The notes below the pieces were generated by a model that was given only the letters and a program-made list of their open reading frames with translations, searched no databases and was not told the origin of the DNA. A program made the translations under genes and the position numbers. Of a DNA stretch of 37,505 nucleotides, positions 10,145-32,707 are shown piece after piece. Position 1 is the first letter of the stretch. Every line of letters begins with the position of its first letter. Location of the stretch: the IMG/VR virus record IMGVR_UViG_2721755658_000003. One strand, 5' to 3'. Source of the stretch: a virus. Lineage: Duplodnaviria > Heunggongvirae > Uroviricota > Caudoviricetes.

Positions 10145-10711
10145 TCAGGGCGATTCATTGCTCTCATTCGCCGGAAATTTTCTATAAATTGTGGAAACAC
10201 CTACATCAAAAATCAGTGCAATACGCTGTCTTGATTCTCCGGCCTCGAGTAAACGTCCAATCTGTGCCCACTGTTCGGTGGTCAACTTAGGACGGCGTCC
10301 ACCTACTCTGCCTTTGGCGCGAGCTGCAGCAAGCCCCGCCCTGGTACGTTCAACTATCAGTTCGCGCTCCATTTCAGCCAGGGCCCCCATGACATGAAAA
10401 AAGAAACGGCCCATTGGGGTACTGGTATCAATACTGTCAGTCAGGCTTCGGAAATTCACGCCACGCTGGCGCAGCTCTTCTATCAGCGTAACGAGATGCC
10501 GCATACTGCGCCCCAACCTGTCCAGCTTCCAGACAACCAGAGTGTCACCTGCCGATAATGTCCTGAGCAGTTTTTTCAGTCCCGGTCTGTCGGACTTAGT
10601 GCCACTGATTTTGTCCTCAAAAATCCGCTCACATCCCGCGCAGTTCAGTGCATTACGTTGCAAATCGGTGTTCTGGTCATTTGTTGACACGCGTACATAG
10701 CCAATAAGCAT
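10145..10711 (-). CDS. serine DNA invertase, Gin/Pin/Cin/Hin family
   Basis: N-terminus MLIGYVRVSTNDQNTDLQRNAL with catalytic Ser context and C-terminal HTH; very close to Mu Gin / e14 Pin by recall; adjacent to the inversion site. Confidence 0.9.
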   Translation of the reverse strand: MLIGYVRVSTNDQNTDLQRNALNCAGCERIFEDKISGTKSDRPGLKKLLRTLSAGDTLVVWKLDRLGRSMRHLVTLIEELRQRGVNFRSLTDSIDTSTPMGRFFFHVMGALAEMERELIVERTRAGLAAARAKGRVGGRRPKLTTEQWAQIGRLLEAGESRQRIALIFDVGVSTIYRKFPANESNESP

Positions 10712-10766
10712 GATCAATCCCCTGAATAAAAACCGGGGATGATGCCAGTTAGCCGTTATCTCTGCA

Positions 10767-10792
10767 TTTTCATAAACGTTGGTTTGGGAGAA
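10767..10792. repeat. inversion crossover site 1 (gix/cix-like 26-bp site)
   Basis: TTTTCATAAACGTTGGTTTGGGAGAA; its 3' 13 bp TGGTTTGGGAGAA are an exact inverted repeat of 12679-12691, and it matches the reverse complement of 12679-12704 at 20 of 26 positions. Confidence 0.65.
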
Positions 10793-11152
10793 GCAGCGAA
10801 ACGGGGTGTGGGAACAGGGGAAAATCAGATACCGGACATGGCTTCTTTTGCCAGTGGTGATGGGTGGATGAAATTACCCAACGGGAAAATCCTGCAATAT
10901 GGTCGTGGTGCGGTTACGCCGACATTATCGACGCAAACAATGAGAATTACATTCAGCATCCCTTTTCCTAAAAAAGTGGACTGCGCCATGCTTACTCATT
11001 CTGGTGATGGTGGTGCGCCTTTAGGTGCTGGGCGGGGATTCGTGATGACCGCAGAAGGCCCAACATTAACCGGTTTTAATTCCGCTTACAGAACTGCATC
11101 AACCAGTTCCACAGTATCGATGAATTACAGTTGGTGGGCTGTTGGTGAGTAA
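10779..11152 (+). CDS. silent alternative tail-fibre C-terminal segment (Sv'-like); no own N-terminus in this orientation
   Basis: Plus-strand ORF begins at the crossover site and encodes the same GLGE junction peptide as H; would fuse to the constant part of H after inversion. Confidence 0.5.
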
Positions 11153-11163
11153 TTTTATTCAGG

Positions 11164-11616
11164 GTGATTTATATGAACGAATATGTTTATAGCGCAAGGC
11201 ATAATGCTTTTTTCCCTGTGGATATGATTGATAAATATAAATCAGAGGGATGGGATTTATCAGACGCTAAGGAAGTAAATCAAAATATTATCAGTGAGTT
11301 TATGGCTGAACCGCCACAAGGAAAAATCCGTATTGCCGGAGATGATGGGCTGCCTGCGTGGGCAGATATTCCTCCACCCACGCATGAAGAACTTATTGAA
11401 ATTACTGAATCAGAAAGACAGCTACTAATTAACCAAGCCAACGAATACATGAACAGTAAGCAATGGCCCGGTAAAGCCGCTATTGGTCGTCTGAAAGATG
11501 ATGAACTGGCGCAATATAATTTGTGGCTGGATTATCTGGACGCACTGGAACTGGTTGATTCCTCCAGTGCGCCAGATATTGAATGGCCTACGCCTCCGGC
11601 AGTTCAGGCCAGATGA
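11164..11616 (+). CDS. alternative tail fibre assembly protein (U'-like)
   Basis: 150-aa ORF inside the invertible segment, convergent with and overlapping the 3' end of the minus-strand assembly gene; true start may be the Met at 11173. Confidence 0.7.
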   Translation: MIYMNEYVYSARHNAFFPVDMIDKYKSEGWDLSDAKEVNQNIISEFMAEPPQGKIRIAGDDGLPAWADIPPPTHEELIEITESERQLLINQANEYMNSKQWPGKAAIGRLKDDELAQYNLWLDYLDALELVDSSSAPDIEWPTPPAVQAR

Positions 11617-16384: not shown

Positions 16385-16418
16385 TTGACACAAAAGATGT
16401 TTATTGACAATATATAAG
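16385..16418 (+). promoter_or_regulatory. putative sigma70 promoter of the accessory gene
   Basis: TTGACA at 16385-16390 and a second TTGACA at 16404-16409 followed by TATATAAG; AT-rich region just upstream of the RBS AGGAG (16431-16435). Confidence 0.35.
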
Positions 16419-16442
16419 TTCAATCTAACAAGGAGAAAAATT

Positions 16443-18218
16443 ATGCCAAATGAAAATCTTGATATTGACTCAAGGACTACCGAGCAATTATACGAATGGT
16501 ATTTGCAAGGAAATTTGATAGTCAATAGACGTTATCAAAGGAAACTTGTATGGTCTCTAGAAGAAAAGACTTCTTTAATATCTTCTATGCTGCAACAATA
16601 TCCTATTCCGTTATTATTATTTGTTACCATCAATGAACAAAGAGAAATATTGGATGGAATGCAAAGATTAGAAGCAATTATGAGCTTCATCGAACAGAGA
16701 TTTTCATTAGATGGACAATATTTTGATTTGGACTCTATAGCTTTAACAAAACAACTTAAAGATAATGGAACTTTAATTCAGAAAGAACCAATCCTTTCCC
16801 GTGATTCTTCAGCAATTATTGCACGTTATCGATTTGCAATATCAGAATATAGCTCCACAAATGAAAATATTGACGAAGTATTCAGACGAATAAACTCAAA
16901 CGGGAAGATTTTATCCAAACAAGAATTACGTAGTGCAGGAACAGTTAGTAACTTCTCTGAACTGGTCAGATCGATATCAACATCGATCAGAGGTGATACT
17001 AGCCATTCTGACATTATGAATCTCCAGCAAATGCACAAAATTTCAATCAGTAACGATAGATTGGAGTACGGGGTAAATATCGATAACCACTTTTATATAA
17101 AACATCATATTTTAACAAGACGAAGTATTCGTGATTCTGATGACGAGGAATTGATAGCCAATATCCTTGCATATATCAGTCTAGAAGAAAAACCCACATC
17201 TGGGTCAACTTCTCTCGACACATTCTATGGTCAAGGAAACTCCTCTCATGCTCATGGTGTCAGACAGCAATTAGAGTCTTTCATTCAAACCAATAACGCT
17301 GCCACTATTAAGCAGAATTTCATAGCTGTATATGAATTAATTACAAGCCTATATGACGGAAAAAATGATACTTTTAGAAGCCATATTTTAGGGGAGGATA
17401 ATTCATCTCAAGAATGCCCTCGTTATTATCAAGCTGTGTTTTTGTCTATTTATGAACTTCTTTTCAACCAAAATATGCAATTAATTGATAAAGAAGGTTT
17501 ATTCTCGCAATTAAAAAACACTGGCAATACCATAATTATGGTTACCGATGGTGGCCGCTGGGCTGCAAGCACTCGTGAAAAAAGTGTTAATGATCTTGTT
17601 GCATTAATAAGTCGTTACTTCCAACCTGCTCCTCAAAAGTATGTGAATCATGCTTGGGTAACTGAAATTCGCAATCTATTAACAAATTCTAGAACTGAAC
17701 AACCAAGTTATGATTTCAAACAAGGGTTCTTTAATTTATCAGGTAAAAATGAATTTGATGATGAATGTTTAAAAGGAATATTACAAACTTGCGTAGCAAT
17801 AAATAATATTGGAAAAAGCGCAAAAGGCTATATTTTAGTTGGTATTGCCGAAAATAAATTAACCGCAGATAGAATTCAACATTTATATGGAGTAAATTCA
17901 ATTGAGTTCAATGGGTTCTATATAAACGGAATTGATCATGAAGCAATGTTAGTCTCTGGTAGCATTGATGATTACTTTATGTTAATAAAACAAAAAATAC
18001 AAGGATACAATTTCACTGAAACTCTAAAACAGCAGATACTTAAGAATATTGAGTTTTGCTCTTACAATGGCTTACACATACTCAAGATAACTATTCAGAG
18101 CACAGGTCAAATTTGCGACTTTGAGAATATGTTTTATATCAGACAAGGCTCATCGACTGATCCAGTTACGGATACACAAAACATCTCAGCTCTATTTAAC
18201 TCTTACATGAACAGCTAA
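16443..18218 (+). CDS. accessory protein: DUF262 (ParB-like/GmrS N-terminal) domain fused to an AlbA_2/Schlafen-like C-terminal domain; candidate anti-phage defence protein
   Basis: ATG at 16443 with SD AGGAG 7 nt upstream (ORF track uses an upstream TTG at 16404); N-terminal motif RRYQRKLVWSLEEK...DGMQRLEAI typical of DUF262; C-terminal DFKQG...ILQTCVAINNIGKSAKGYILVGIAENK resembles the AlbA_2 core; AT-rich, opposite strand to flanking tail genes. Confidence 0.7.
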   Translation: MPNENLDIDSRTTEQLYEWYLQGNLIVNRRYQRKLVWSLEEKTSLISSMLQQYPIPLLLFVTINEQREILDGMQRLEAIMSFIEQRFSLDGQYFDLDSIALTKQLKDNGTLIQKEPILSRDSSAIIARYRFAISEYSSTNENIDEVFRRINSNGKILSKQELRSAGTVSNFSELVRSISTSIRGDTSHSDIMNLQQMHKISISNDRLEYGVNIDNHFYIKHHILTRRSIRDSDDEELIANILAYISLEEKPTSGSTSLDTFYGQGNSSHAHGVRQQLESFIQTNNAATIKQNFIAVYELITSLYDGKNDTFRSHILGEDNSSQECPRYYQAVFLSIYELLFNQNMQLIDKEGLFSQLKNTGNTIIMVTDGGRWAASTREKSVNDLVALISRYFQPAPQKYVNHAWVTEIRNLLTNSRTEQPSYDFKQGFFNLSGKNEFDDECLKGILQTCVAINNIGKSAKGYILVGIAENKLTADRIQHLYGVNSIEFNGFYINGIDHEAMLVSGSIDDYFMLIKQKIQGYNFTETLKQQILKNIEFCSYNGLHILKITIQSTGQICDFENMFYIRQGSSTDPVTDTQNISALFNSYMNS

Positions 18219-24243: not shown

Positions 24244-26022
24244 ATGAACACCACACTGACACCCGCAGATCTCGATCCCCGTCGGCAGGCCATGCTGCTG
24301 TACTTTCAGGGATACCGCGTAGCCCGCATTGCTGAAATGCTGGGCGAGAAAGTTGCAACCGTTCACAGCTGGAAAAAACGCGACAAGTGGGGTGACTATG
24401 GGCCGCTGGATCAGATGCAGCTCACCACCGCCGCACGCTACTGCCAGCTCATTATGAAGGAGCACAAAGAAGGGAAAGATTTCAAAGAGATTGACCTGCT
24501 GGCGCGCCAGTCTGAGCGCCACGCGCGGATCGGCAAGTTTAACAATGGCGGCAACGAAGCCGACTTAAACCCTAACGTCGCCAACCGCAACAAAGGCCCG
24601 CGCCGTCAGCCGGAAAAGAATGTTTTCACCGATGAACAAATTGAGAAGCTGGAAGAAATTTTCCATTCCTCCATGTTCAACTACCAGCGCCACTGGTGGG
24701 AAGCCGGAAAAACCAACCGCATCCGCAACCTGCTAAAGTCACGCCAGATCGGCGCGACCTTCTATTTTGCCCGTGAAGCCCTGATTGACGCCCTGCTTAC
24801 CGGACGTAACCAGATTTTCCTTTCTGCCAGTAAGGCACAGGCTCACGTCTTTAAGCAGTACATCATCGATTTCGCCAAAGAAGTCGAGGTGGAGCTGAAA
24901 GGTGATCCGATGGTGCTTCCTAACGGGGCCACGCTTTACTTCCTCGGCACCAATGCCCGCACGGCCCAGAGTTACCACGGCAACCTGTATCTGGATGAAT
25001 ATTTCTGGATACCGAAATTCCAGGAGCTGCGCAAAGTGGCTTCCGGTATGGCTATTCACAAAAAATGGCGACAGACCTATTTTTCCACACCATCCAGTCT
25101 GACACACAGTGCTTATCCGTTCTGGTCCGGTGCGCTGTTCAACCGAGGGCGCAACAAAGCCGATAAGGTGGACATCGACCTGTCCCACAGCAATCTGGCC
25201 CCCGGCCTGCTGTGTGCAGACGGGCAGTACCGCCAGATAGTCACCGTGGAAGATGCGGTGCGGGGCGGCTGTAACCTGTTCGACCTCGACCAGTTGCGCA
25301 TGGAGTACAGCCCGGACGAATACCAGAACCTGCTGATGTGTGAGTTTGTGGACGATCTCGCGTCCGTGTTCCCGCTCAGCGAGCTGCAAGCGTGCATGGT
25401 GGACAGCTGGGAAGTCTGGACCGACTTTCATGCACTGGCCCTGCGCCCGTTTGGCTGGCGCGAAGTGTGGATCGGTTATGACCCGGCAAAAGGTACGCAG
25501 AACGGCGACAGTGCCGGATGCGTGGTGGTGGCACCGCCAGCCGTGCCGGGTGGTAAGTTCCGCATTCTTGAGCGTCACCAGTGGCGCGGGATGGACTTCC
25601 GCGCCCAGGCTGACGCCATCAAAAAACTGACCGAGCAGTACAACGTGACCTACATCGGCATCGACTCGACAGGTGTCGGCCACGGGGTTTACGAGAACGT
25701 GAAAGCGTTTTTTCCAGCCGTCCGGGAGTTTGTCTACAACCCCAACGTTAAAAACGCCCTGGTACTCAAGGCCTACGACATTATCAGTCACCATCGTCTG
25801 GAGTTTGACGCCGGACACACCGACATTGCGCAGTCATTCATGGCAATCCGTCGCGCAACCACCGCCAGCGGCAACCGCCCGACCTATGAAGCCAGCCGCA
25901 GCGAAGAAGCCAGCCACGCCGATCTGGCCTGGGCAACGATGCACGCATTGTTTAACGAACCGCTGCAGGGCGAATCCGCCAATACCAGCAATATTGTGGA
26001 GATTTTTGATGGGAAAGAGTAA
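24244..26022 (+). CDS. terminase large subunit, ATPase (gpP-like)
   Basis: 592-aa ORF divergent from O; size matches P2 P; overlaps the Q start. Confidence 0.85.
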   Translation: MNTTLTPADLDPRRQAMLLYFQGYRVARIAEMLGEKVATVHSWKKRDKWGDYGPLDQMQLTTAARYCQLIMKEHKEGKDFKEIDLLARQSERHARIGKFNNGGNEADLNPNVANRNKGPRRQPEKNVFTDEQIEKLEEIFHSSMFNYQRHWWEAGKTNRIRNLLKSRQIGATFYFAREALIDALLTGRNQIFLSASKAQAHVFKQYIIDFAKEVEVELKGDPMVLPNGATLYFLGTNARTAQSYHGNLYLDEYFWIPKFQELRKVASGMAIHKKWRQTYFSTPSSLTHSAYPFWSGALFNRGRNKADKVDIDLSHSNLAPGLLCADGQYRQIVTVEDAVRGGCNLFDLDQLRMEYSPDEYQNLLMCEFVDDLASVFPLSELQACMVDSWEVWTDFHALALRPFGWREVWIGYDPAKGTQNGDSAGCVVVAPPAVPGGKFRILERHQWRGMDFRAQADAIKKLTEQYNVTYIGIDSTGVGHGVYENVKAFFPAVREFVYNPNVKNALVLKAYDIISHHRLEFDAGHTDIAQSFMAIRRATTASGNRPTYEASRSEEASHADLAWATMHALFNEPLQGESANTSNIVEIFDGKE

Positions 26023-27043
26023 GAAGAACCGCGCTGCGGCGACGAAACAGATCCAGCTTAAAAGCCAGACTACAGCCGAAGCATTCAGCTTCGGCGATCC
26101 CGTTCCTGTTCTGGACCGCCGAGAATTACTGGACTATGTGGAATGCGTACAGATGGACCGTTGGTATGAGCCGCCCGTCAGCTTTGACGGACTGGCGCGC
26201 ACCTTCCGCGCTGCAGTGCATCACAGTTCCCCGATTGCAGTAAAGTGCAACATTCTGACCAGTACCTACATCCCTCACCCGCTGCTCAGCCAGCAGGCTT
26301 TTTCACGTTTTGTGCAGGACTATCTGGTATTTGGTAACGCCTACCTGGAGAAACGCACGAACCGATTCGGTGAAGTTATCGCCCTTGAGCCTGCGCTGGC
26401 AAAATACACCCGACGCGGGTTAGACCTGGATACCTACTGGTTTGTGCAATACGGCATGACTACACAGCCGTATCAGTTCACGAAAGGCAGCATTTTTCAC
26501 CTGATGGAACCGGATATCAACCAGGAGATCTACGGCCTGCCCGGTTATCTTTCTGCCATTCCGTCAGCCCTGCTCAACGAGTCCGCCACGCTGTTCCGCC
26601 GCAAGTATTACATTAACGGCAGCCACGCAGGCTTCATCATGTACATGACCGACGCCGCGCAGAACCAGGAGGATGTAAACAACCTCCGTAACGCGATGAA
26701 AAGCGCCAAAGGACCAGGCAACTTCCGTAACCTGTTTATGTACTCGCCGAACGGCAAAAAGGACGGGCTTCAGATCATCCCATTGTCTGAAGTCGCGGCA
26801 AAGGATGAGTTTCTGAATATCAAAAATGTTAGTCGCGATGACATGATGGCGGCACACCGCGTGCCGCCGCAAATGATGGGGATTATGCCTAATAATGTTG
26901 GGGGGTTTGGGGATGTGGAGAAAGCGAGCCTCGTCTTTGTCCGCAATGAGCTGATGCCATTGCAGAAACGACTGCAGGAACTGAATGATTGGGCCGGAGA
27001 TGAAATTATTTCATTCGCACCATATGTTTTAGGGACATATTAA
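26009..27043 (+). CDS. portal protein (gpQ-like)
   Basis: Start at ATG 26009 (MGKSKKNR), overlapping the P stop; 344 aa as in P2 Q; the ORF track's upstream extension to 25730 lies inside P. Confidence 0.8.
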   Translation: MGKSKKNRAAATKQIQLKSQTTAEAFSFGDPVPVLDRRELLDYVECVQMDRWYEPPVSFDGLARTFRAAVHHSSPIAVKCNILTSTYIPHPLLSQQAFSRFVQDYLVFGNAYLEKRTNRFGEVIALEPALAKYTRRGLDLDTYWFVQYGMTTQPYQFTKGSIFHLMEPDINQEIYGLPGYLSAIPSALLNESATLFRRKYYINGSHAGFIMYMTDAAQNQEDVNNLRNAMKSAKGPGNFRNLFMYSPNGKKDGLQIIPLSEVAAKDEFLNIKNVSRDDMMAAHRVPPQMMGIMPNNVGGFGDVEKASLVFVRNELMPLQKRLQELNDWAGDEIISFAPYVLGTY

Positions 27044-27047
27044 TACT

Positions 27048-27069
27048 AAGCCGCTCTTGAGAGCGGCTT
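27048..27069. terminator. bidirectional hairpin between convergent Q and the SEFIR-like gene
   Basis: Stem AAGCCGCTC / GAGCGGCTT with 4-nt loop, in the 29-bp gap between the two stop codons. Confidence 0.4.
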
Positions 27070-27072
27070 GCA

Positions 27073-28512
27073 TCATTTTATAGAATCAAGGTTATCGGCG
27101 TTCATCATACTTTCAAAACCAGTTCCCATACGTCCATATCTAACCCCTGAATTATGCATACTCTGAGCGCCGGCCTTAACCTTCAATTTGATCTCTTGCG
27201 CTGACGCTATCCCAGCAATCATTGCTAAATATTCAAAATACTTATGCTGTGTCGCTCTTAAAAATAGTTCAGGTCTATAATTATAACTCGCATAATAAAT
27301 AGTGCATGGATACCAATAGACACCATCATTACAAAATGAATAAAAAAGAACTAGCACATCAGCCTGCATAAGATCAGAAAAGGTAATATCTTCCCTATCT
27401 GCATTTCTTTTAATTAGCTCTGCAACTGGAGAGTAATACCTTATATCTTCTTCAAAACCTGCCTGTAGCGTTTCAGAATCAGCTAAGAAAGCGCTAATTG
27501 ACACGAGTCTATGTTCCGGTGGTAACTGCCTATCACCAGAAAGGAATCTGGCAGATAAAATCGCACGTACTAATTGAAACTTCTCTAATCTAATCAATAT
27601 AGCAACTGAATATAAGAAAATTTCGTATGCAAATACCTTTTGTGCATCATACCAGTTTAATTGCCATGAACTGACATCGCTAGGAGCTTCGGTTAGTAAC
27701 AGAACTTTTTCAAAGAACTTTACTAGTTCTGTTGAAAATTCATCCTGCATCGTAAACTCTGCCTCAAGAGTTATCCATTCACACACATAATCCCTGATAG
27801 GCTTCATGGCAGCAACGTCGCTAATTATTTTCCTACCCATGCTTTGCAAATCATTTTGCTCTGGGCGAGCTCGGATTCTCATCCCGTCAAGGTACTTGAC
27901 TACTGAATCAACGAAATCACGCCGATAATAACTAACACCTGCCCTATTTTGCAAAACAGCTTGTTTCAAGCTATTAAATTTTGCGTGTGGTTCACTCACC
28001 GGATCATATTGCCCACTATCTAAATAACTGGGTCTTTTTCCAAGCTTAGGTTTTATATCTGCTGGTTTTCCATTAAGCAGCCTTACTAACCGTTCCCAAT
28101 TTTGATTTTCTTTTTCTGGTGTTGAAAGGTCAATCCATATTAACGAACTCATAAAAACAGGAAGACAAGGTTCTGAATTCTCATCAAATTCACAAACAAT
28201 AGGTATAAATTTTGATTGTTCGACTTTTGTGTAGACTTGTTGAGAGATGATCTGGGATTCTGTGCCAACCCCACTTTGTTTGTTATCAGCTTTTTTTGCG
28301 TAAACTGAATCACACATCACAAGCACATTGGTGATACTTTTATCAACAATCATTTTTTCCATGAATGCGTTTTTATCATTGCCCTCCTTCAAATCATATA
28401 TGTCAATGACAACATCCACTCCATCACTCAAAAGTCTATCAGCTATTGCTTTAACTCTTTCCTTATGAGCTGGGCTACTCCAACTATATGATATAAAAAC
28501 TTTTGGCGTCAT
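27073..28512 (-). CDS. accessory protein with N-terminal SEFIR/TIR-like domain and uncharacterised C-terminal region; candidate defence protein
   Basis: N-terminus MTPKVFISYSWSSPAHKERVKAIADRLLSDGVDVVIDIYDL matches the SEFIR/TIR_2 signature; AT-rich; lies between cos and the portal gene. Confidence 0.65.
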   Translation of the reverse strand: MTPKVFISYSWSSPAHKERVKAIADRLLSDGVDVVIDIYDLKEGNDKNAFMEKMIVDKSITNVLVMCDSVYAKKADNKQSGVGTESQIISQQVYTKVEQSKFIPIVCEFDENSEPCLPVFMSSLIWIDLSTPEKENQNWERLVRLLNGKPADIKPKLGKRPSYLDSGQYDPVSEPHAKFNSLKQAVLQNRAGVSYYRRDFVDSVVKYLDGMRIRARPEQNDLQSMGRKIISDVAAMKPIRDYVCEWITLEAEFTMQDEFSTELVKFFEKVLLLTEAPSDVSSWQLNWYDAQKVFAYEIFLYSVAILIRLEKFQLVRAILSARFLSGDRQLPPEHRLVSISAFLADSETLQAGFEEDIRYYSPVAELIKRNADREDITFSDLMQADVLVLFYSFCNDGVYWYPCTIYYASYNYRPELFLRATQHKYFEYLAMIAGIASAQEIKLKVKAGAQSMHNSGVRYGRMGTGFESMMNADNLDSIK

Positions 28513-28723
28513 ACTCAGTCCTTATCGAATTTATTAGGTACTTGAGCACAAGTTACTGCTCACAGAGTTTTTCAGCAAGTTCTGTTCGCATCGGCAACAC
28601 CTGCGCTATTAGCTGCTCAGCAGCATTCTGCAGAGTGCTCTCCTTTTACCTGCAATTTAGACAGAAGTTGTCAACGTACCGGAGATTGCGCCGGATTTTC
28701 GCCATTTAACCCCGTTGCGCGCG

Positions 28724-28742
28724 CTCGTATCCCCGCCACGCC
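28724..28742 (-). other. cos-like cohesive-end site
   Basis: Minus-strand GGCGTGGCGGGGATACGAG followed by CGCGCGC resembles the P2 cohesive end GGCGAGGCGGGGAAAGCAC...GCGCGC as recalled from memory. Confidence 0.5.
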
Positions 28743-28782
28743 TGCCCGCTTTATGTAGTGGTTTTCATGCACCTGCATGATC

Positions 28783-28811
28783 TACGCAAAAGCCCGCCAG
28801 AACTGGCGGGC
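28783..28811 (-). terminator. terminator-like hairpin downstream of the lipoprotein gene
   Basis: Stem GCCCGCCAG / CTGGCGGGC followed on the minus strand by TTTTG. Confidence 0.35.
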
Positions 28812-28915
28812 CTTAACACAAAAGATCCTCAAACGATCATGCGATCTCATGCAGCATAGACATGCGCGTTTATGCAGAATGTGCAAAATCGTAACATACT
28901 CAGCAAGCGTGAAAC

Positions 28916-29593
28916 CTAGAACGTGACAGCCTTGTCAAAGCCAGAAATAATTGTATAAGAAATAGACGAGTTATCAGCCTTGTTCACTTTGAACTTGGCA
29001 CCTTTGTAAGCGATAACGTCACTTCCCTTAGAATCTACAGAAAAATCTGTTGTAAATGCTGCACGAGCCATATCGTTTGCAAATTCACGATAGGTGAACT
29101 TCATTACACCGCCTGCATTTCCATTGTATTCGATAGTCTTAACCAATGAGTTACTAACTCGACACAGCCCATCAGGAACACGTTTGATAGAAATTTCTGA
29201 TGCAGTATAAGAAGTACCATTTGGCGGTGATATCTCATTTTTTGCAGCATCGTAACTAACATAATCAACATAGTTACCGATTTGCCCATAGAGATTTTTT
29301 AACGCAACAGCTTGAGGGTTATGATAATTGCGGTAAATTCCATTCCCCTCACTGCAATATGTACCAGCAGCGATAGAAGACAATGCACCATTAGCCGCAC
29401 CAAGTTCTAGTACGTCCGTTTTAAATCCAGTAGCAGATGTGATAATGGGATCGCCCATGTAGGCGGTAGCACTTTGCCCAATAGCAGGCTTCACCACTTC
29501 AATAGCAGTGATATTTCGGTTAGAAGCATGTGGCACGCAACCAGTTAGGATTACAGCAAGAGATATTGGTAACGCTACATTATTAATTTTCAT
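28916..29593 (-). CDS. accessory lipoprotein of unknown function
   Basis: Start at MKINNVALPISLAVILTGC (ATG 29593) giving signal peptide plus lipobox LTGC; C-terminal aromatic residue; AT-rich. Confidence 0.6.
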   Translation of the reverse strand: MKINNVALPISLAVILTGCVPHASNRNITAIEVVKPAIGQSATAYMGDPIITSATGFKTDVLELGAANGALSSIAAGTYCSEGNGIYRNYHNPQAVALKNLYGQIGNYVDYVSYDAAKNEISPPNGTSYTASEISIKRVPDGLCRVSNSLVKTIEYNGNAGGVMKFTYREFANDMARAAFTTDFSVDSKGSDVIAYKGAKFKVNKADNSSISYTIISGFDKAVTF

Positions 29594-29616
29594 TTTTAGC
29601 CTATTATTCTTTTCTT

Positions 29617-29651
29617 GACAAAAAACAAGGCGATATCTGATTGACATCGCC
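29617..29651 (-). terminator. rho-independent terminator after the DinI-like gene
   Basis: Minus-strand hairpin GGCGATGTC...GATATCGCC followed by TTGTTTTTTG. Confidence 0.45.
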
Positions 29652-29706
29652 TCTCACTCATATGTAACCCTTTTTGATTAGTAAAAACAAGCGTCTATTG
29701 ACAAAA

Positions 29707-29940
29707 TCAATGCAGCCAGCTGTCGTCTTCCCACACCTTCTGCATAATTTTCATCACTTGTTTTCTTTCTTCGTCCAGTTGCAGTCCGGTCAGTTCCACA
29801 CCGTTAGAGCTACCTTTACGGATACGGATTACCGTTTTGGGATACAGGGGGCGCAGATTGCGGTAAAGCTCGGATTCAAGGGCGTCCAGGGTAGACTGGC
29901 TAATCTTCTGCTCTTTATCGATCATTATTTCAATGCGCAT
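29707..29940 (-). CDS. DinI-like protein
   Basis: Start at MRIEIMIDKEQ with SD GAGGTGA 5 nt upstream; resembles E. coli DinI (MRIEVTIAK...QETWE) in length and pattern. Confidence 0.65.
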   Translation of the reverse strand: MRIEIMIDKEQKISQSTLDALESELYRNLRPLYPKTVIRIRKGSSNGVELTGLQLDEERKQVMKIMQKVWEDDSWLH

Positions 29941-29950
29941 AAAAGTCACC

Positions 29951-30139
29951 TCAGTTGATGACATCCATTGAGCGGTTGTATTCGTGGCTTCTGATTTTTG
30001 CCATGAGTTCATCAGTCAATTCAGAAACCCACTGCAGAGCCAGCCCCTTCTCTTCATCACTACACTCACTAGCCGCTACAAGCTTAAGAAAAAAATCAAT
30101 GCGCTGGAGCTTCAAAGACTCCAAAAAATAGTCCTGCAT
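29951..30139 (-). CDS. small SOS-controlled hypothetical protein, first gene of the LexA-box operon
   Basis: 62-aa ORF with strong SD (AGGAGGAAAG) and a LexA box 43 bp upstream. Confidence 0.5.
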   Translation of the reverse strand: MQDYFLESLKLQRIDFFLKLVAASECSDEEKGLALQWVSELTDELMAKIRSHEYNRSMDVIN

Positions 30140-30181
30140 CTTTCCTCCTATGACACCACACGCAATACTGTATGTATAACC

Positions 30182-30199
30182 ACTGTTTATATTTACAGT
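30182..30199 (-). promoter_or_regulatory. LexA (SOS) box overlapping the promoter of the small-ORF/DinI-like operon
   Basis: ACTGTTTATATTTACAGT has a perfect CTGT-N8-ACAG core; overlaps a -10-like TATACT and a TTTACA -35 on the minus strand; a second degenerate box overlaps at 30166-30185. Confidence 0.7.
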
Positions 30200-30292
30200 A
30201 TATAATAATCTTACTGATGTAAAACGTTTTTTTACGCTTATCAGCCTGATATGCCTGGTATTATTAAGAGCACGAATTGTTAACCAGCGTAA

Positions 30293-32707
30293 TTAATACA
30301 GGTTCCGCCACTTATCATCTTCCTGCAAACGCTGGTTCCGATAGAAGATACGCAGGCCTGCTCCTGACGGAATACTGCCGCCGCGAAGGAGTAAATCGAC
30401 CTCTTTCTCGCTGCCATCAAATCCTCTGGATTTCAGTTCATAGACGAGCTGCTGTCGTTGATGGTCTGTAATTCGCTGTTTGTAGTCTCTACGCCGTTTC
30501 GGTTTCACCAGACGTAACCTTGCAGCCAGTTCCCGGCGCTCCTTTTTGTTCATACTGTGCAGGTAATCGTGCAACACCTTGTCATCCATGCGGGTAATGT
30601 CCGTTCTGGGGTCCCCATCAGCTGATTTATCTTTCTCCTGTTGGTTCAAATTTTCAGCAAGGGGACAGTTATTGCCACGAGTCCAAGGGGCGCAAGCGCC
30701 CTGGTCGGCTGCCGCCTCCTGAACGTCAACGGCTTTACGAACCATTTTCCACTTCACTGCATGAGTGCAGATCTTGCCCTCTGCAATGGGTGACCAGATG
30801 CCATAAATACGAATGCCGTGATCGCCATAGGCGGTCGGCTCTTCGTTGATTTCATAAGCGGTTCTGATGAGGTGATATTTACGGGGAACCAGTACGCCGC
30901 CCTGCTTCATGATGTAGGTGGCAAAACAACCAGCATCAGCAGCAGCCAGGATGGCATCAAGGCGCGGGTTATCCAGTACCGGCGCACCTGCTTTTTTGTC
31001 CCCCTTTTGCCTTGCCGCCTGACCAGCCAGCAATCGCAGTTCACGGTAAGCCTGACGCCCCGGAATGCCAAAGAAGCGGAATTGCTGAACACGATGCAGA
31101 GACGCCCAGGCATTCACGTATTCAGCGTTATCACGCAGAGATTTACCCGTTTCCTTGCTGATCTCGCCAGCCAGACCACGCCCGTCAATGTTCTTACTGA
31201 TGTATTTCGCTATGTAGCTTGTCGGCGTTCCTTTGCGCGGGTTAATCAGCTCAGACTTAAAGCGCGGCCCCGTGTTATTGCCCAGCTCCTCGCGGTCTTC
31301 ACGGATAGCAAACTTACGCAACAATGCTGTAATGGCGCGGCGGTCTTTTTTGCGCATGAAACACAACAGGTGCCAGTGAACGGTGCCGTCGTGATGCGGC
31401 TCAGCCACCCGCACGCCATACCAGCGCAACCCGGCTTTGTGCATCGCCTTACGAAATGCAGCAAACATACCGACCAGATAATCGCTGCTTTGTCTTACCG
31501 TCGCATTTGTCCAGATCGGGTTGGGCCTGCCGTTATTTAGCGTGGAATGGAAACGTGACGGACAGGTGATGGTGTAGAAAACGGCGCAGTCACCGCGCAT
31601 TTCCGCGATAAGCTCCAGACCTTTAACACAGGCCATCATCTCATTGCGGCGATGCGCAGGGTTGCTGCTGCTGGCGTTTACCACATCCTCCATGTCTAGC
31701 GTGTCGCCGTCTTCGTTCACCAGTTCATGAGAACGGAAAAACTCCAGCGACTTACGGCGCTGCTCACGTTTATGCAACACGGCTTCATAGCTGACATAGG
31801 GAGATGCTTTTTTGCTGACAAGGCAGACAGCACGCAACTGCTCTTCCCGCCATTCGCAACGCATCTTCCATAATTTCCGATACCACCAGTCGGCGCACAA
31901 CATACGCGCCAGCGAACCCGGAATGAGTTCATAGGGCACGGGTTTACGGCGGTTTCTTTTCCGACGGAGTTGCTCAAACGCAGGCGGGATGACATCCAGA
32001 CGCAGGGTTTCCGCTGCCACCCTTTCCCATGTATTGCGGATTTCTTCTGGCTTAACGTCATCGGTGGCATACAAATCGCCACAAGCGGCATCAAGGCACA
32101 TACTCATATGCGCAGCTACCAGGGTGGACAGGCGTTTCACCTGATCCTGACTCATTTCAGGCAGGATCAGCAGGCCGTCCAGCCCTTCATGGCTTGCCAT
32201 AAAGCGAAAAGATGCAGATAGCTGACTGTCGCGTACATGCTCCAGTCGTTCCAGACATGGCTTAATCGTCTCACGTAAATAGCGGGAATAAGCCTTTGGC
32301 CTGCCCAGGCTGCTGAAGTATTCAATACGTTGCATCAGCGGCTTGCTGATATGGGAAGGCTGGGCGTTGACGTCCGCCAGAATGACCATATCCGGATTAA
32401 AACGCTGCTGCTCATGCGCCAGCTTTGCCCGACTAATGAGCTTATCCTGTTCCATTTCGCGCTGGACAGGATCACGGGATTCATTAAAGAAATAACGCTC
32501 CCAGACCTGATCACTCAGCGCCTCACGGCGCAGCTGTTCCTGCTCGTTATCGGCAGCGTACAGAGTGATCAGGTTTGAAAGCGTAGAAACCGGCGCAACT
32601 TCCGCCGGGTCCAGATAAGGGTTAATGGCCTTTTTCGAGCTGTTCCATGAGAACGATGCGGCAGCTTCGTTAAAGCCGCAGCAGTTGTTCATATCGGCAT
32701 GACTCAT
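30293..32707 (-). CDS. replication initiation endonuclease (gpA-like, rolling-circle initiator)
   Basis: 804-aa ORF with [15 protein letters not shown] motif typical of P2 A-family initiators. Confidence 0.85.

What the first reader, a model, noticed from the sequence alone, without database searches (positions are those of the whole stretch)
27044..28723. SEFIR/TIR-like domain protein inserted between cos and the portal gene
In P2 only a short non-coding stretch separates the left cohesive end from the 3' end of Q. Here a ~480-aa AT-rich gene fills that space, convergent with Q, ending 29 bp from the Q stop and starting ~210 bp from the cos-like sequence. Its N-terminal ~140 aa match the SEFIR/TIR-like signature (KVFISYSWSS...H...DGVDVVIDIYDL); TIR and SEFIR domains are NAD+-depleting effectors in several bacterial immune systems, including Thoeris and the single-gene SEFIR system. 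The C-terminal ~330 aa, the likely sensor, match nothing I can recognise. The cos-proximal accessory region of P2-like phages (tin/old) is a known defence hotspot, so this is a strong candidate abortive-infection protein with a possibly new sensor domain.
Basis: partly seen in the sequence, partly recalled or inferred. Interest (0 to 1): 0.8.

Follow-up and report, generated by a model that had tools for sequence, protein, structure and literature searches.

The report
Known SEFIR defence gene, P2 hotspot
This is an intact copy of the already described single-gene bacterial "SEFIR" anti-phage system, which starves infected cells of NAD+, sitting in the already described variable defence slot next to the DNA-packaging site of a P2-like prophage; it is a correct call but an ordinary one.

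Summary
A 479-aa gene (27073..28512, minus strand, GC ~0.37 against ~0.55 in the phage backbone) lies between the portal gene Q (stop at 27043) and a cos-like 19-mer (28724-28742).

The "possibly new sensor domain" is not new. The whole protein matches the PADLOC bSEFIR profile over residues 2-478 (E 1.9e-104) and phrog_11745 (E 2.9e-140). More than 1,300 cluster representatives carry the same C-terminal domain, in many bacterial phyla and in Methanosarcinales. That domain is all-alpha and has no Pfam family and no specific PDB fold match, so its function is still uncharacterised.

The Q-cos interval is a polymorphic cargo slot in E. coli P2-like prophages. Sampled alleles are empty or carry ShosTA, a ThsB-like TIR, a PIN protein and others. 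It lies inside the gpA-gpQ hotspot of Rousset et al. 2022, whose tables already list "TIR_2/SEFIR" cargo.

Identical proteins are annotated at NCBI as SEFIR or TIR domain-containing proteins.

Most likely function: abortive-infection defence by NAD+ depletion, with an unknown trigger. Low novelty and low interest.

The parts
27073..28512 (-). bSEFIR-family gene, 479 aa, including the stop codon at 27073-27075
   Evidence: ORF list. PADLOC bSEFIR E 1.9e-104 over residues 2-478. phrog_11745 E 2.9e-140. A 100% identical protein cluster is present in public E. coli genomes.
28063..28512 (-). N-terminal SEFIR domain (aa 1-150), the presumed NADase effector. Invariant residues include D37, D40 and E85 in the motif GVGTESQIIS.
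27997..28062 (-). Linker (aa 151-172), predicted disordered
   Evidence: pLDDT below 50 for residues 152-171. This is the lowest-identity segment together with the C-terminal domain.
27076..27996 (-). C-terminal all-alpha domain (aa 173-479), the family's conserved but uncharacterised putative sensor or regulatory domain
27047..27070 (.). GC-rich hairpin between the convergent Q and SEFIR genes; a likely bidirectional terminator
   Evidence: Terminator scan. Fold dG -16.6 kcal/mol, z -4.2.
28513..28715 (-). 5' region of the cargo module, with a Shine-Dalgarno-like AAGGA at 28519-28523. The promoter has not been located.
   Evidence: Sequence. Homology to other alleles stops at ~28715. The 70 bp upstream of the ATG travel with the gene in a non-phage chromosomal copy, L100. 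The promoter scan found nothing convincing upstream.
28716..28865 (.). Conserved cos core block, including the 19-mer at 28724-28742. It separates the two variable slots.
   Evidence: 89-96% identical in E. coli and Klebsiella phage alleles that carry unrelated cargo. The 13-mer is unique in the window and present in 14 related loci.
26009..27043 (+). Portal gene Q, the conserved left flank. Its last ~50 bp diverge between alleles.
   Evidence: Translation. Annotation of the identical locus. Homology breaks at 26992/27009.

Best explanation
The gene is a member of the bacterial single-gene SEFIR (bSEFIR) anti-phage family. It is carried as a self-contained cassette (gene, short 5' region and terminator hairpin) in the variable slot between the portal gene and cos of a 186/P2-like E. 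coli prophage. The proposed mechanism runs as follows. The protein is made in the lysogen and stays inactive. When a heterologous phage infects, the C-terminal alpha-helical domain detects a cue that is still unknown. This releases or assembles the N-terminal SEFIR domains through SEFIR-SEFIR contacts. The assembled domains hydrolyse NAD+ to ADP-ribose and nicotinamide, and NAD+ depletion aborts the infection, which protects the lysogen population and the resident prophage. What is shown here: family membership over the full length, the domain architecture, the solitary (single-gene) context, and the hotspot behaviour of the locus. What is taken from the literature for the Bacillus family member: defence against phi29, loss of defence with D40A, NAD+ depletion, and reversal by the phage NARP1 pathway. 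What is inferred: that this E. coli copy is active, that E85 is the catalytic residue, that the C-terminal domain is the sensor, and when the gene is expressed.
Against: There is no experimental evidence for this E. coli member. I could not obtain the sequence of the validated Bacillus protein, so homology to it is shown only through the PADLOC profile and the B. cereus SEFIR structure. The profile match spans 348 of 412 profile positions with 477 residues, so the C-terminal region carries insertions relative to the profile. The equivalence of E85 to the TIR catalytic glutamate could not be shown by sequence, and residues 81-85 are modelled with low confidence. No convincing promoter was found. 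The SEFIR score is only marginally above TIR_2 in Pfam (56.7 against 56.2 bits).
Confidence: 0.8

Rival explanations
1. The protein is a signal-generating TIR-like enzyme of the Thoeris ThsB type. It would make a nucleotide second messenger that activates a separate effector encoded elsewhere, rather than depleting NAD+ itself.
Against: PADLOC gives no ThsB hit for this protein, only bSEFIR. The slot holds no second gene, and there is no conserved neighbour in any context examined. The family is reported as a single-protein NAD+ depleter.
Confidence: 0.05
2. The protein has no defence role. It could be a general protein-protein interaction scaffold, as first proposed for bacterial SEFIR domains, a lysogenic-conversion factor, or an addiction factor that benefits the prophage in some other way.
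For: Before 2022 bacterial SEFIR domains were proposed to be generic interaction modules (Yang et al. 2018, as cited). There are no functional data for this copy. The trigger and the role of the C-terminal domain are unknown.
Against: The protein matches the defence family over its full length. It sits in a slot whose alternative cargos are known defence systems. The family is enriched in defence islands and has been validated experimentally.
Confidence: 0.08
3. The gene is a defence gene of the bSEFIR family, but the C-terminal domain is not a direct sensor of a phage protein. It would be an autoinhibitory or oligomerisation scaffold, or it would bind a conserved small molecule or nucleic acid produced during infection.
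For: About 30 C-terminal positions, many of them charged or aromatic (R197, D199, R214, E250, E268, E365, R373, D375, Q422), are invariant across 40 diverse homologues that include several bacterial phyla. This fits a fixed ligand or interface better than a fast-changing phage-protein surface. The fold is a generic alpha-solenoid.
Against: The C-terminal domain evolves faster than the effector domain. It also occurs behind other N-terminal modules, a PD-T4-6-like kinase and a ParA-like ATPase, as portable sensors do. None of this discriminates firmly between the two readings.
Confidence: 0.3
4. The gene is decaying, non-functional cargo.
For: It is rare among complete E. coli genomes, present in 3 of 5426 at high identity. 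Fragmented copies exist: Escherichia phage 500465-1 and truncated cluster members.
Against: The ORF is intact and all family-invariant residues are kept. Intact 479-aa variants of this 90%-identity cluster were seen on many E. coli contigs. The SD sequence and the terminator are intact.
Confidence: 0.03

Closest known systems
bSEFIR, the single-gene SEFIR defence system (Millman et al. 2022; Bacillus sp. NIO-1130 protein; PADLOC PDLC03957)
   Same: Same architecture: an N-terminal SEFIR domain followed by a ~300-aa C-terminal domain, acting as a single gene. The profile match is full-length (E 1.9e-104).
   Different: Enterobacterial and prophage-borne rather than from a Bacillus defence island. 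This copy is untested. Its C-terminal domain is about 40% identical to those of distant family members.
BcSEFIR, the crystal structure of a Bacillus cereus SEFIR domain (PDB 5Y8E/5Y8F)
   Different: The structure covers the SEFIR domain only. No solved structure covers the C-terminal domain.
gp16 of Klebsiella phage ST15-OXA48phi14.1 (Peduoviridae), and portal-adjacent SEFIR genes in Hafnia, Enterobacter, Citrobacter and Klebsiella P2-like prophages
   Same: Same family (bSEFIR E 6.9e-103 for the Klebsiella phage gene; the prophage copies are full-length homologues by sequence and Pfam SEFIR/TIR_2). Same position and orientation: between cos and the portal gene, convergent with Q.
   Different: Only 43-54% identical to the window protein (76% for Klebsiella P0008). 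They are as distant from each other as from copies in other phyla, so there are several deep lineages or repeated captures.
Cargo of the P2 gpA-gpQ hotspot (tin, old, and the systems catalogued by Rousset et al. 2022)
   Same: A cos-proximal, AT-rich, swappable accessory gene with a presumed anti-phage role. 'TIR_2/SEFIR' proteins are listed in that catalogue.
   Different: tin and old lie on the A side of cos, whereas this gene lies on the Q side. The window also has separate cargo on the A side, at 28866-29708.
Other NAD+-depleting single-protein defences (the TIR-NLR/Avs of P4 satellites, DSR1/DSR2)
   Same: The same logic of an N-terminal NADase effector joined to a C-terminal sensor.
   Different: There is no STAND NTPase, TPR or SIR2 domain here. 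The C-terminal domain has no Pfam family.

Membership tests
bSEFIR single-gene defence system | An N-terminal SEFIR domain, with the SEFIR hit stronger than the TIR hit (criterion in Millman et al.) | tested here: met
bSEFIR single-gene defence system | Full-length match to the family profile, including the C-terminal domain | tested here: met
   PADLOC PDLC03957 E 1.9e-104, residues 2-478, profile positions 38-385 of 412.
bSEFIR single-gene defence system | Acts alone, with no conserved partner gene | tested here: met
   It is the only gene in the Q-cos slot. Neighbours differ in every context examined.
bSEFIR single-gene defence system | The acidic residue needed for SEFIR-SEFIR interaction (D40 in the Bacillus protein) is conserved | tested here: inconclusive
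   D37 and D40 are invariant in 40 homologues.
bSEFIR single-gene defence system | Protects against phage and depletes NAD+ on infection | not testable with these tools
   Known only for the Bacillus member.
Cargo of the P2-like gpA-gpQ (cos-proximal) defence hotspot | Lies between the portal gene Q and the replication gene A, next to cos | tested here: met
   Order in the window: Q 26009-27043, SEFIR, cos 28724-28742, a 243-aa gene, DinI, gpA 30293-32707.
Cargo of the P2-like gpA-gpQ (cos-proximal) defence hotspot | The interval is polymorphic between conserved flanks in related prophages | tested here: met
   1288 of 5426 E. coli genomes match part of the query spanning the flanks, and only 3 carry this cargo. 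In the sampled records where both flanks were joined, the span ranges from 959 bp (empty) to ~2.5 kb. Homology breakpoints are at ~26993 and ~28716.
Cargo of the P2-like gpA-gpQ (cos-proximal) defence hotspot | Alternative alleles include recognised defence systems | tested here: met
   ShosA 9e-70 and ShosT 3e-18 (L019), ThsB-like TIR 6e-12 (L016). Annotations of other alleles: PIN, SieB-family, DUF4145, TIGR02391.
Thoeris (ThsB TIR plus ThsA effector) | An adjacent ThsA-type effector gene and a ThsB-type TIR profile match | tested here: not met
   No ThsB hit for this protein. There is no second gene in the slot.
TIR-superfamily NADases | A conserved catalytic glutamate in the active site | tested here: inconclusive
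   E85 (GVGTE) is invariant and occupies the segment after strand C where TIR NADases carry their catalytic Glu (my inference). No sequence alignment to any TIR NADase was obtained, and residues 81-85 have pLDDT below 50.

The most novel reading that the evidence does not exclude
The uncharacterised C-terminal alpha-helical domain of the bSEFIR family may be a portable sensor module. Evolution would couple it to different effectors: the SEFIR NADase here, a PD-T4-6-like Ser/Thr kinase in P0262, and a ParA-like ATPase in P0248. The several deep, fast-evolving lineages parked at the same portal-cos slot of enterobacterial P2-like phages would then be allelic sensors tuned to different phage triggers. 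If so, this E. coli cassette would be a tractable entry point for finding the still unknown trigger of SEFIR immunity.
Probability: 0.2. Interest if true: 0.5.

Novelty: already known. Interest (0 to 1): 0.15.

Why it matters
It also shows that the case is already covered: by standard defence predictors (the PADLOC bSEFIR profile), by NCBI annotation, and by the published catalogue of P2 hotspots. Its remaining value is practical. It is an E. coli-native, prophage-borne bSEFIR allele with its own regulatory region. It could be used to find the unknown trigger and the role of the conserved C-terminal domain in a genetically easy host. It also illustrates that the cos core of P2-like phages separates two cargo slots that assort independently.

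Tried and rejected
- Megablast of the module against 50,697 phage records found nothing. Only tblastn found divergent homologues.
- NCBIfam has no model for the protein.
- A profile search of the PDB with the 40-sequence alignment found only BcSEFIR and no TIR NADase, so the catalytic Glu could not be aligned by sequence.
- Foldseek against viral structures gave nothing at E <= 0.001.
- The afdb50 fold library was not available.
- The sigma-70 scan gave no more sites than shuffled sequence and none convincingly upstream of the ATG. A perfect TTGACA at about 28670-28675 lacks a good -10 by eye.
- Literature searches for a structure or trigger of bacterial SEFIR found none.
- The published version of Millman et al. 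2022 and one 2026 preprint are not held. NAD+ depletion by SEFIR therefore rests on the statement in Osterman et al. 2024.
- I considered Thoeris-like signalling and rejected it, because there is no partner gene and no ThsB profile hit.
- I could not confirm that the accessions in Rousset's table (WP_053065571, WP_113990193) are this exact protein. Cluster listings show other accessions.

Full report
**Observation.** The window carries a complete 186/P2-like prophage in reverse orientation. Host genes ybjM and an Asp-Al_Ex permease lie at the left end and the integrase at the right end. The terminase gene P (24244-26022, +) is followed by the portal gene Q (26009-27043, +, 344 aa). Twenty-nine bp after the Q stop, an ORF on the other strand ends. 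It runs 27073..28512 (-), starts with ATG and encodes 479 aa. The 29-bp gap holds a GC-rich hairpin at 27047-27070 (dG -16.6 kcal/mol, z -4.2). An AAGGA lies 7-11 nt upstream of the ATG.

The sequence GGCGTGGCGGGGATACGAG lies 211 bp upstream of the ATG, at 28724-28742 on the minus strand. Its first 13 nt equal my recollection of the phage 186 cohesive end. That 13-mer occurs once in the window and at the equivalent place in 14 related loci. GC falls from 0.52-0.57 in the phage genes to 0.35-0.40 across the ORF.

**What the protein is.** Pfam finds SEFIR (E 4.3e-15, aa 3-122) and TIR_2 (E 6.4e-15, aa 5-143), and nothing in the remaining 330 aa.
- The PADLOC profile of the single-gene SEFIR defence system (bSEFIR, PDLC03957) matches residues 2-478 with E 1.9e-104.
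- PHROG family phrog_11745 (function unknown) matches the full length with E 2.9e-140.
- The only solved relative by sequence is the Bacillus cereus SEFIR domain (5Y8E/5Y8F, E 5e-25, N-terminus only).

**The family.** A word-indexed search returned more than 3,296 hits. The best 120 are all ~473-512 aa and align over 99-100% of the query.
- A scan of GTDB species genomes found full-length copies at 38-49% identity (81% in the enterobacterium Silvania). The hosts include Proteobacteria, Verrucomicrobiota, Chloroflexota, Planctomycetota, Bacteroidota, Chlorobiota, Nitrospirota, Cyanobacteria and a Methanosarcinales archaeon. This matches the distribution Millman et al. described.
- A profile of the C-terminal domain alone finds 1343 representatives of 50%-identity clusters. 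Most are ~470-495 aa with the domain starting near residue 165.
- The N-domain is more conserved than the C-domain: 73% against 53% mean pairwise identity, and 67% against 40% for the window protein compared with distant members.
- Invariant residues include D37, D40 and E85 (GVGTESQIIS) in the SEFIR domain, and about 30 positions in the C-terminal domain.
- Distant homologues sit alone among unrelated genes in Vibrio, Pseudomonas and Ekhidna, as expected for a single-gene system.

**The locus.** BLAST of window 26400-30300 against other alleles defines three conserved blocks: the portal gene up to ~26992, a cos core at 28716-28865, and the DinI/gpA block from 29709. Two variable slots lie between them.

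Slot 1 (Q side) holds the SEFIR cassette here. In other E. coli prophages it holds the following:
- nothing (L017, ~160 bp from the portal stop to cos);
- ShosTA (L019; ShosA 9e-70, ShosT 3e-18);
- a ThsB-like TIR plus a 243-aa protein (L016);
- a PIN-domain protein (L018);
- by annotation only, SieB-family, DUF4145, DUF6953, TIGR02391 and RNA-binding-domain proteins.

Of 5426 complete E. coli genomes, 1288 match part of the query spanning the flanks and 3 carry this SEFIR allele at 99.8-99.9% identity, in the same position. PGAP annotates it as 'SEFIR domain-containing protein'. Near-identical 479-aa variants in the same 90%-identity cluster have been seen on tens of E. coli contigs each (82, 72, 39 and so on).

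Slot 2 (A side, 28866-29708) holds a 243-aa lipoprotein-like gene in the window. It is empty in L001 and carries different genes in L004-L007, all three next to the same SEFIR allele. The two slots therefore assort independently around the cos core.

**SEFIR genes in this slot in other P2-like phages.** SEFIR genes occupy the same slot, in the same orientation, in:
- Klebsiella phage ST15-OXA48phi14.1 (Peduoviridae, 43% identity, cos motif 86 bp upstream);
- P2-like prophages of Hafnia (52%), Enterobacter (54%), Citrobacter farmeri (50%), Klebsiella (76%) and Silvania (81%).

In a rough neighbour-joining tree, and by pairwise identity, these copies are no closer to each other than to copies from other phyla. 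This suggests several old lineages or repeated captures. A 74%-identical E. coli copy sits in a non-phage chromosomal site near abg/smrA. It shares only the gene plus ~70 bp of upstream DNA with the window, so the cassette also moves outside phages.

**Relation to the literature.**
- Rousset et al. 2022 defined the P2 hotspot as the interval between gpA and gpQ. That includes both sides of cos. Their locus table lists 'TIR_2/SEFIR' proteins in it (PMC9122126).
- A 2026 study confirms gpA-gpQ as the main P2 defence hotspot (PMC13586616).
[quoted passage not shown] - Osterman et al. describe SEFIR as a single-protein system that depletes NAD+ through its N-terminal domain and is overcome by the phage NARP1 pathway.
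- I found no paper on the trigger, or on the structure of the C-terminal domain.

**Mechanism.** The best-supported reading (confidence ~0.8) is abortive-infection defence expressed from the prophage. An infection cue is sensed through the C-terminal domain. The SEFIR domains then associate and cleave NAD+, and the infected cell stops supporting phage growth.
- Shown here: membership, architecture, solitary context and hotspot behaviour.
- Taken from the literature: the phenotype and NAD+ depletion of the Bacillus relative.
- Inferred: activity of this copy, E85 as the catalytic residue, the sensor role of the C-terminal domain, and expression in the lysogen.

The rivals are all weaker: a Thoeris-like signalling TIR, a non-defence scaffold, and decaying cargo. 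The open mechanistic question is whether the C-terminal domain senses a phage protein or a conserved ligand.

**Verdict.** Known family, known hotspot, already annotated. Interest is low (0.15) and the novelty rating is 'already known'.

Noticed in passing
window 16404-18218 (+): A 604-aa gene on the strand opposite to the late genes. It lies between baseplate gene V and the tail-completion genes, which by my recollection is the P2 'orf30' position. It has a GmrSD_N (DUF262) domain (1.7e-17) and a Schlafen AlbA_2 domain (5e-6). PADLOC hits are NsnA (2.9e-23) and PD-T4-2_A (1.3e-17). It is probably a second defence cargo in the same prophage.
   Followed up: partly
window 28866-29708; ORF 28916-29647 (-): The second variable slot, on the A side of the cos core, holds a 243-aa protein with an N-terminal lipobox (LTGC). 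It matches phrog_1353 (E 4e-105, unknown function) and has no significant Pfam or PADLOC hit and no NCBIfam hit near the curated cut-off. The same SEFIR allele occurs with this slot empty (L001) or filled by other genes (L004-L007), so the two slots assort independently.
   Followed up: partly
window 10145-11616: A resolvase/invertase gene (10145-10717, -; Pfam Resolvase 2e-53) lies next to oppositely oriented genes for a tail-fibre C-terminus (Gp53-like_C) and a tail-fibre assembly protein. This looks like a Gin/Cin-type invertible host-range segment, at what I recall as the position of P2's Z/fun locus.
   Followed up: no
proteins P0262 and P0248 (metagenome representatives): The bSEFIR C-terminal domain also occurs behind non-SEFIR N-termini: a PD-T4-6-like Ser/Thr kinase N-lobe (P0262, 532 aa) and an AAA_31/ParA-like ATPase that matches PADLOC candidate PDC-M28B (P0248, 649 aa). 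This hints at effector swapping on a common sensor. Assembly artefacts were not excluded.
   Followed up: partly
L100 3431-4933 (E. coli, Logan SRR8505965): A 74%-identical SEFIR copy sits in a non-phage chromosomal site between abg (Peptidase_M20) genes and smr/GGDEF genes. It shares with the window only the gene plus ~70 bp upstream, with no portal and no cos. The cassette is therefore mobile beyond P2-like phages.
   Followed up: partly
window 26993-27043 (3' end of portal gene Q): Homology between alleles with different cargo breaks ~35-75 bp before the portal stop codon. The C-terminal ~12-25 codons of Q therefore travel with the cargo module rather than with the portal gene.
   Followed up: no
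L103 1488-3028 and L009/L010 3498-5273: In other SEFIR-bearing P2-like prophages the A-side slot carries other cargo: a DprA-like (DNA_processg_A) gene plus a 216-aa gene in Citrobacter farmeri, possibly ShosTA-like, and PAAR-motif proteins in Hafnia. These prophages would then carry two accessory or defence loads flanking cos.
   Followed up: no
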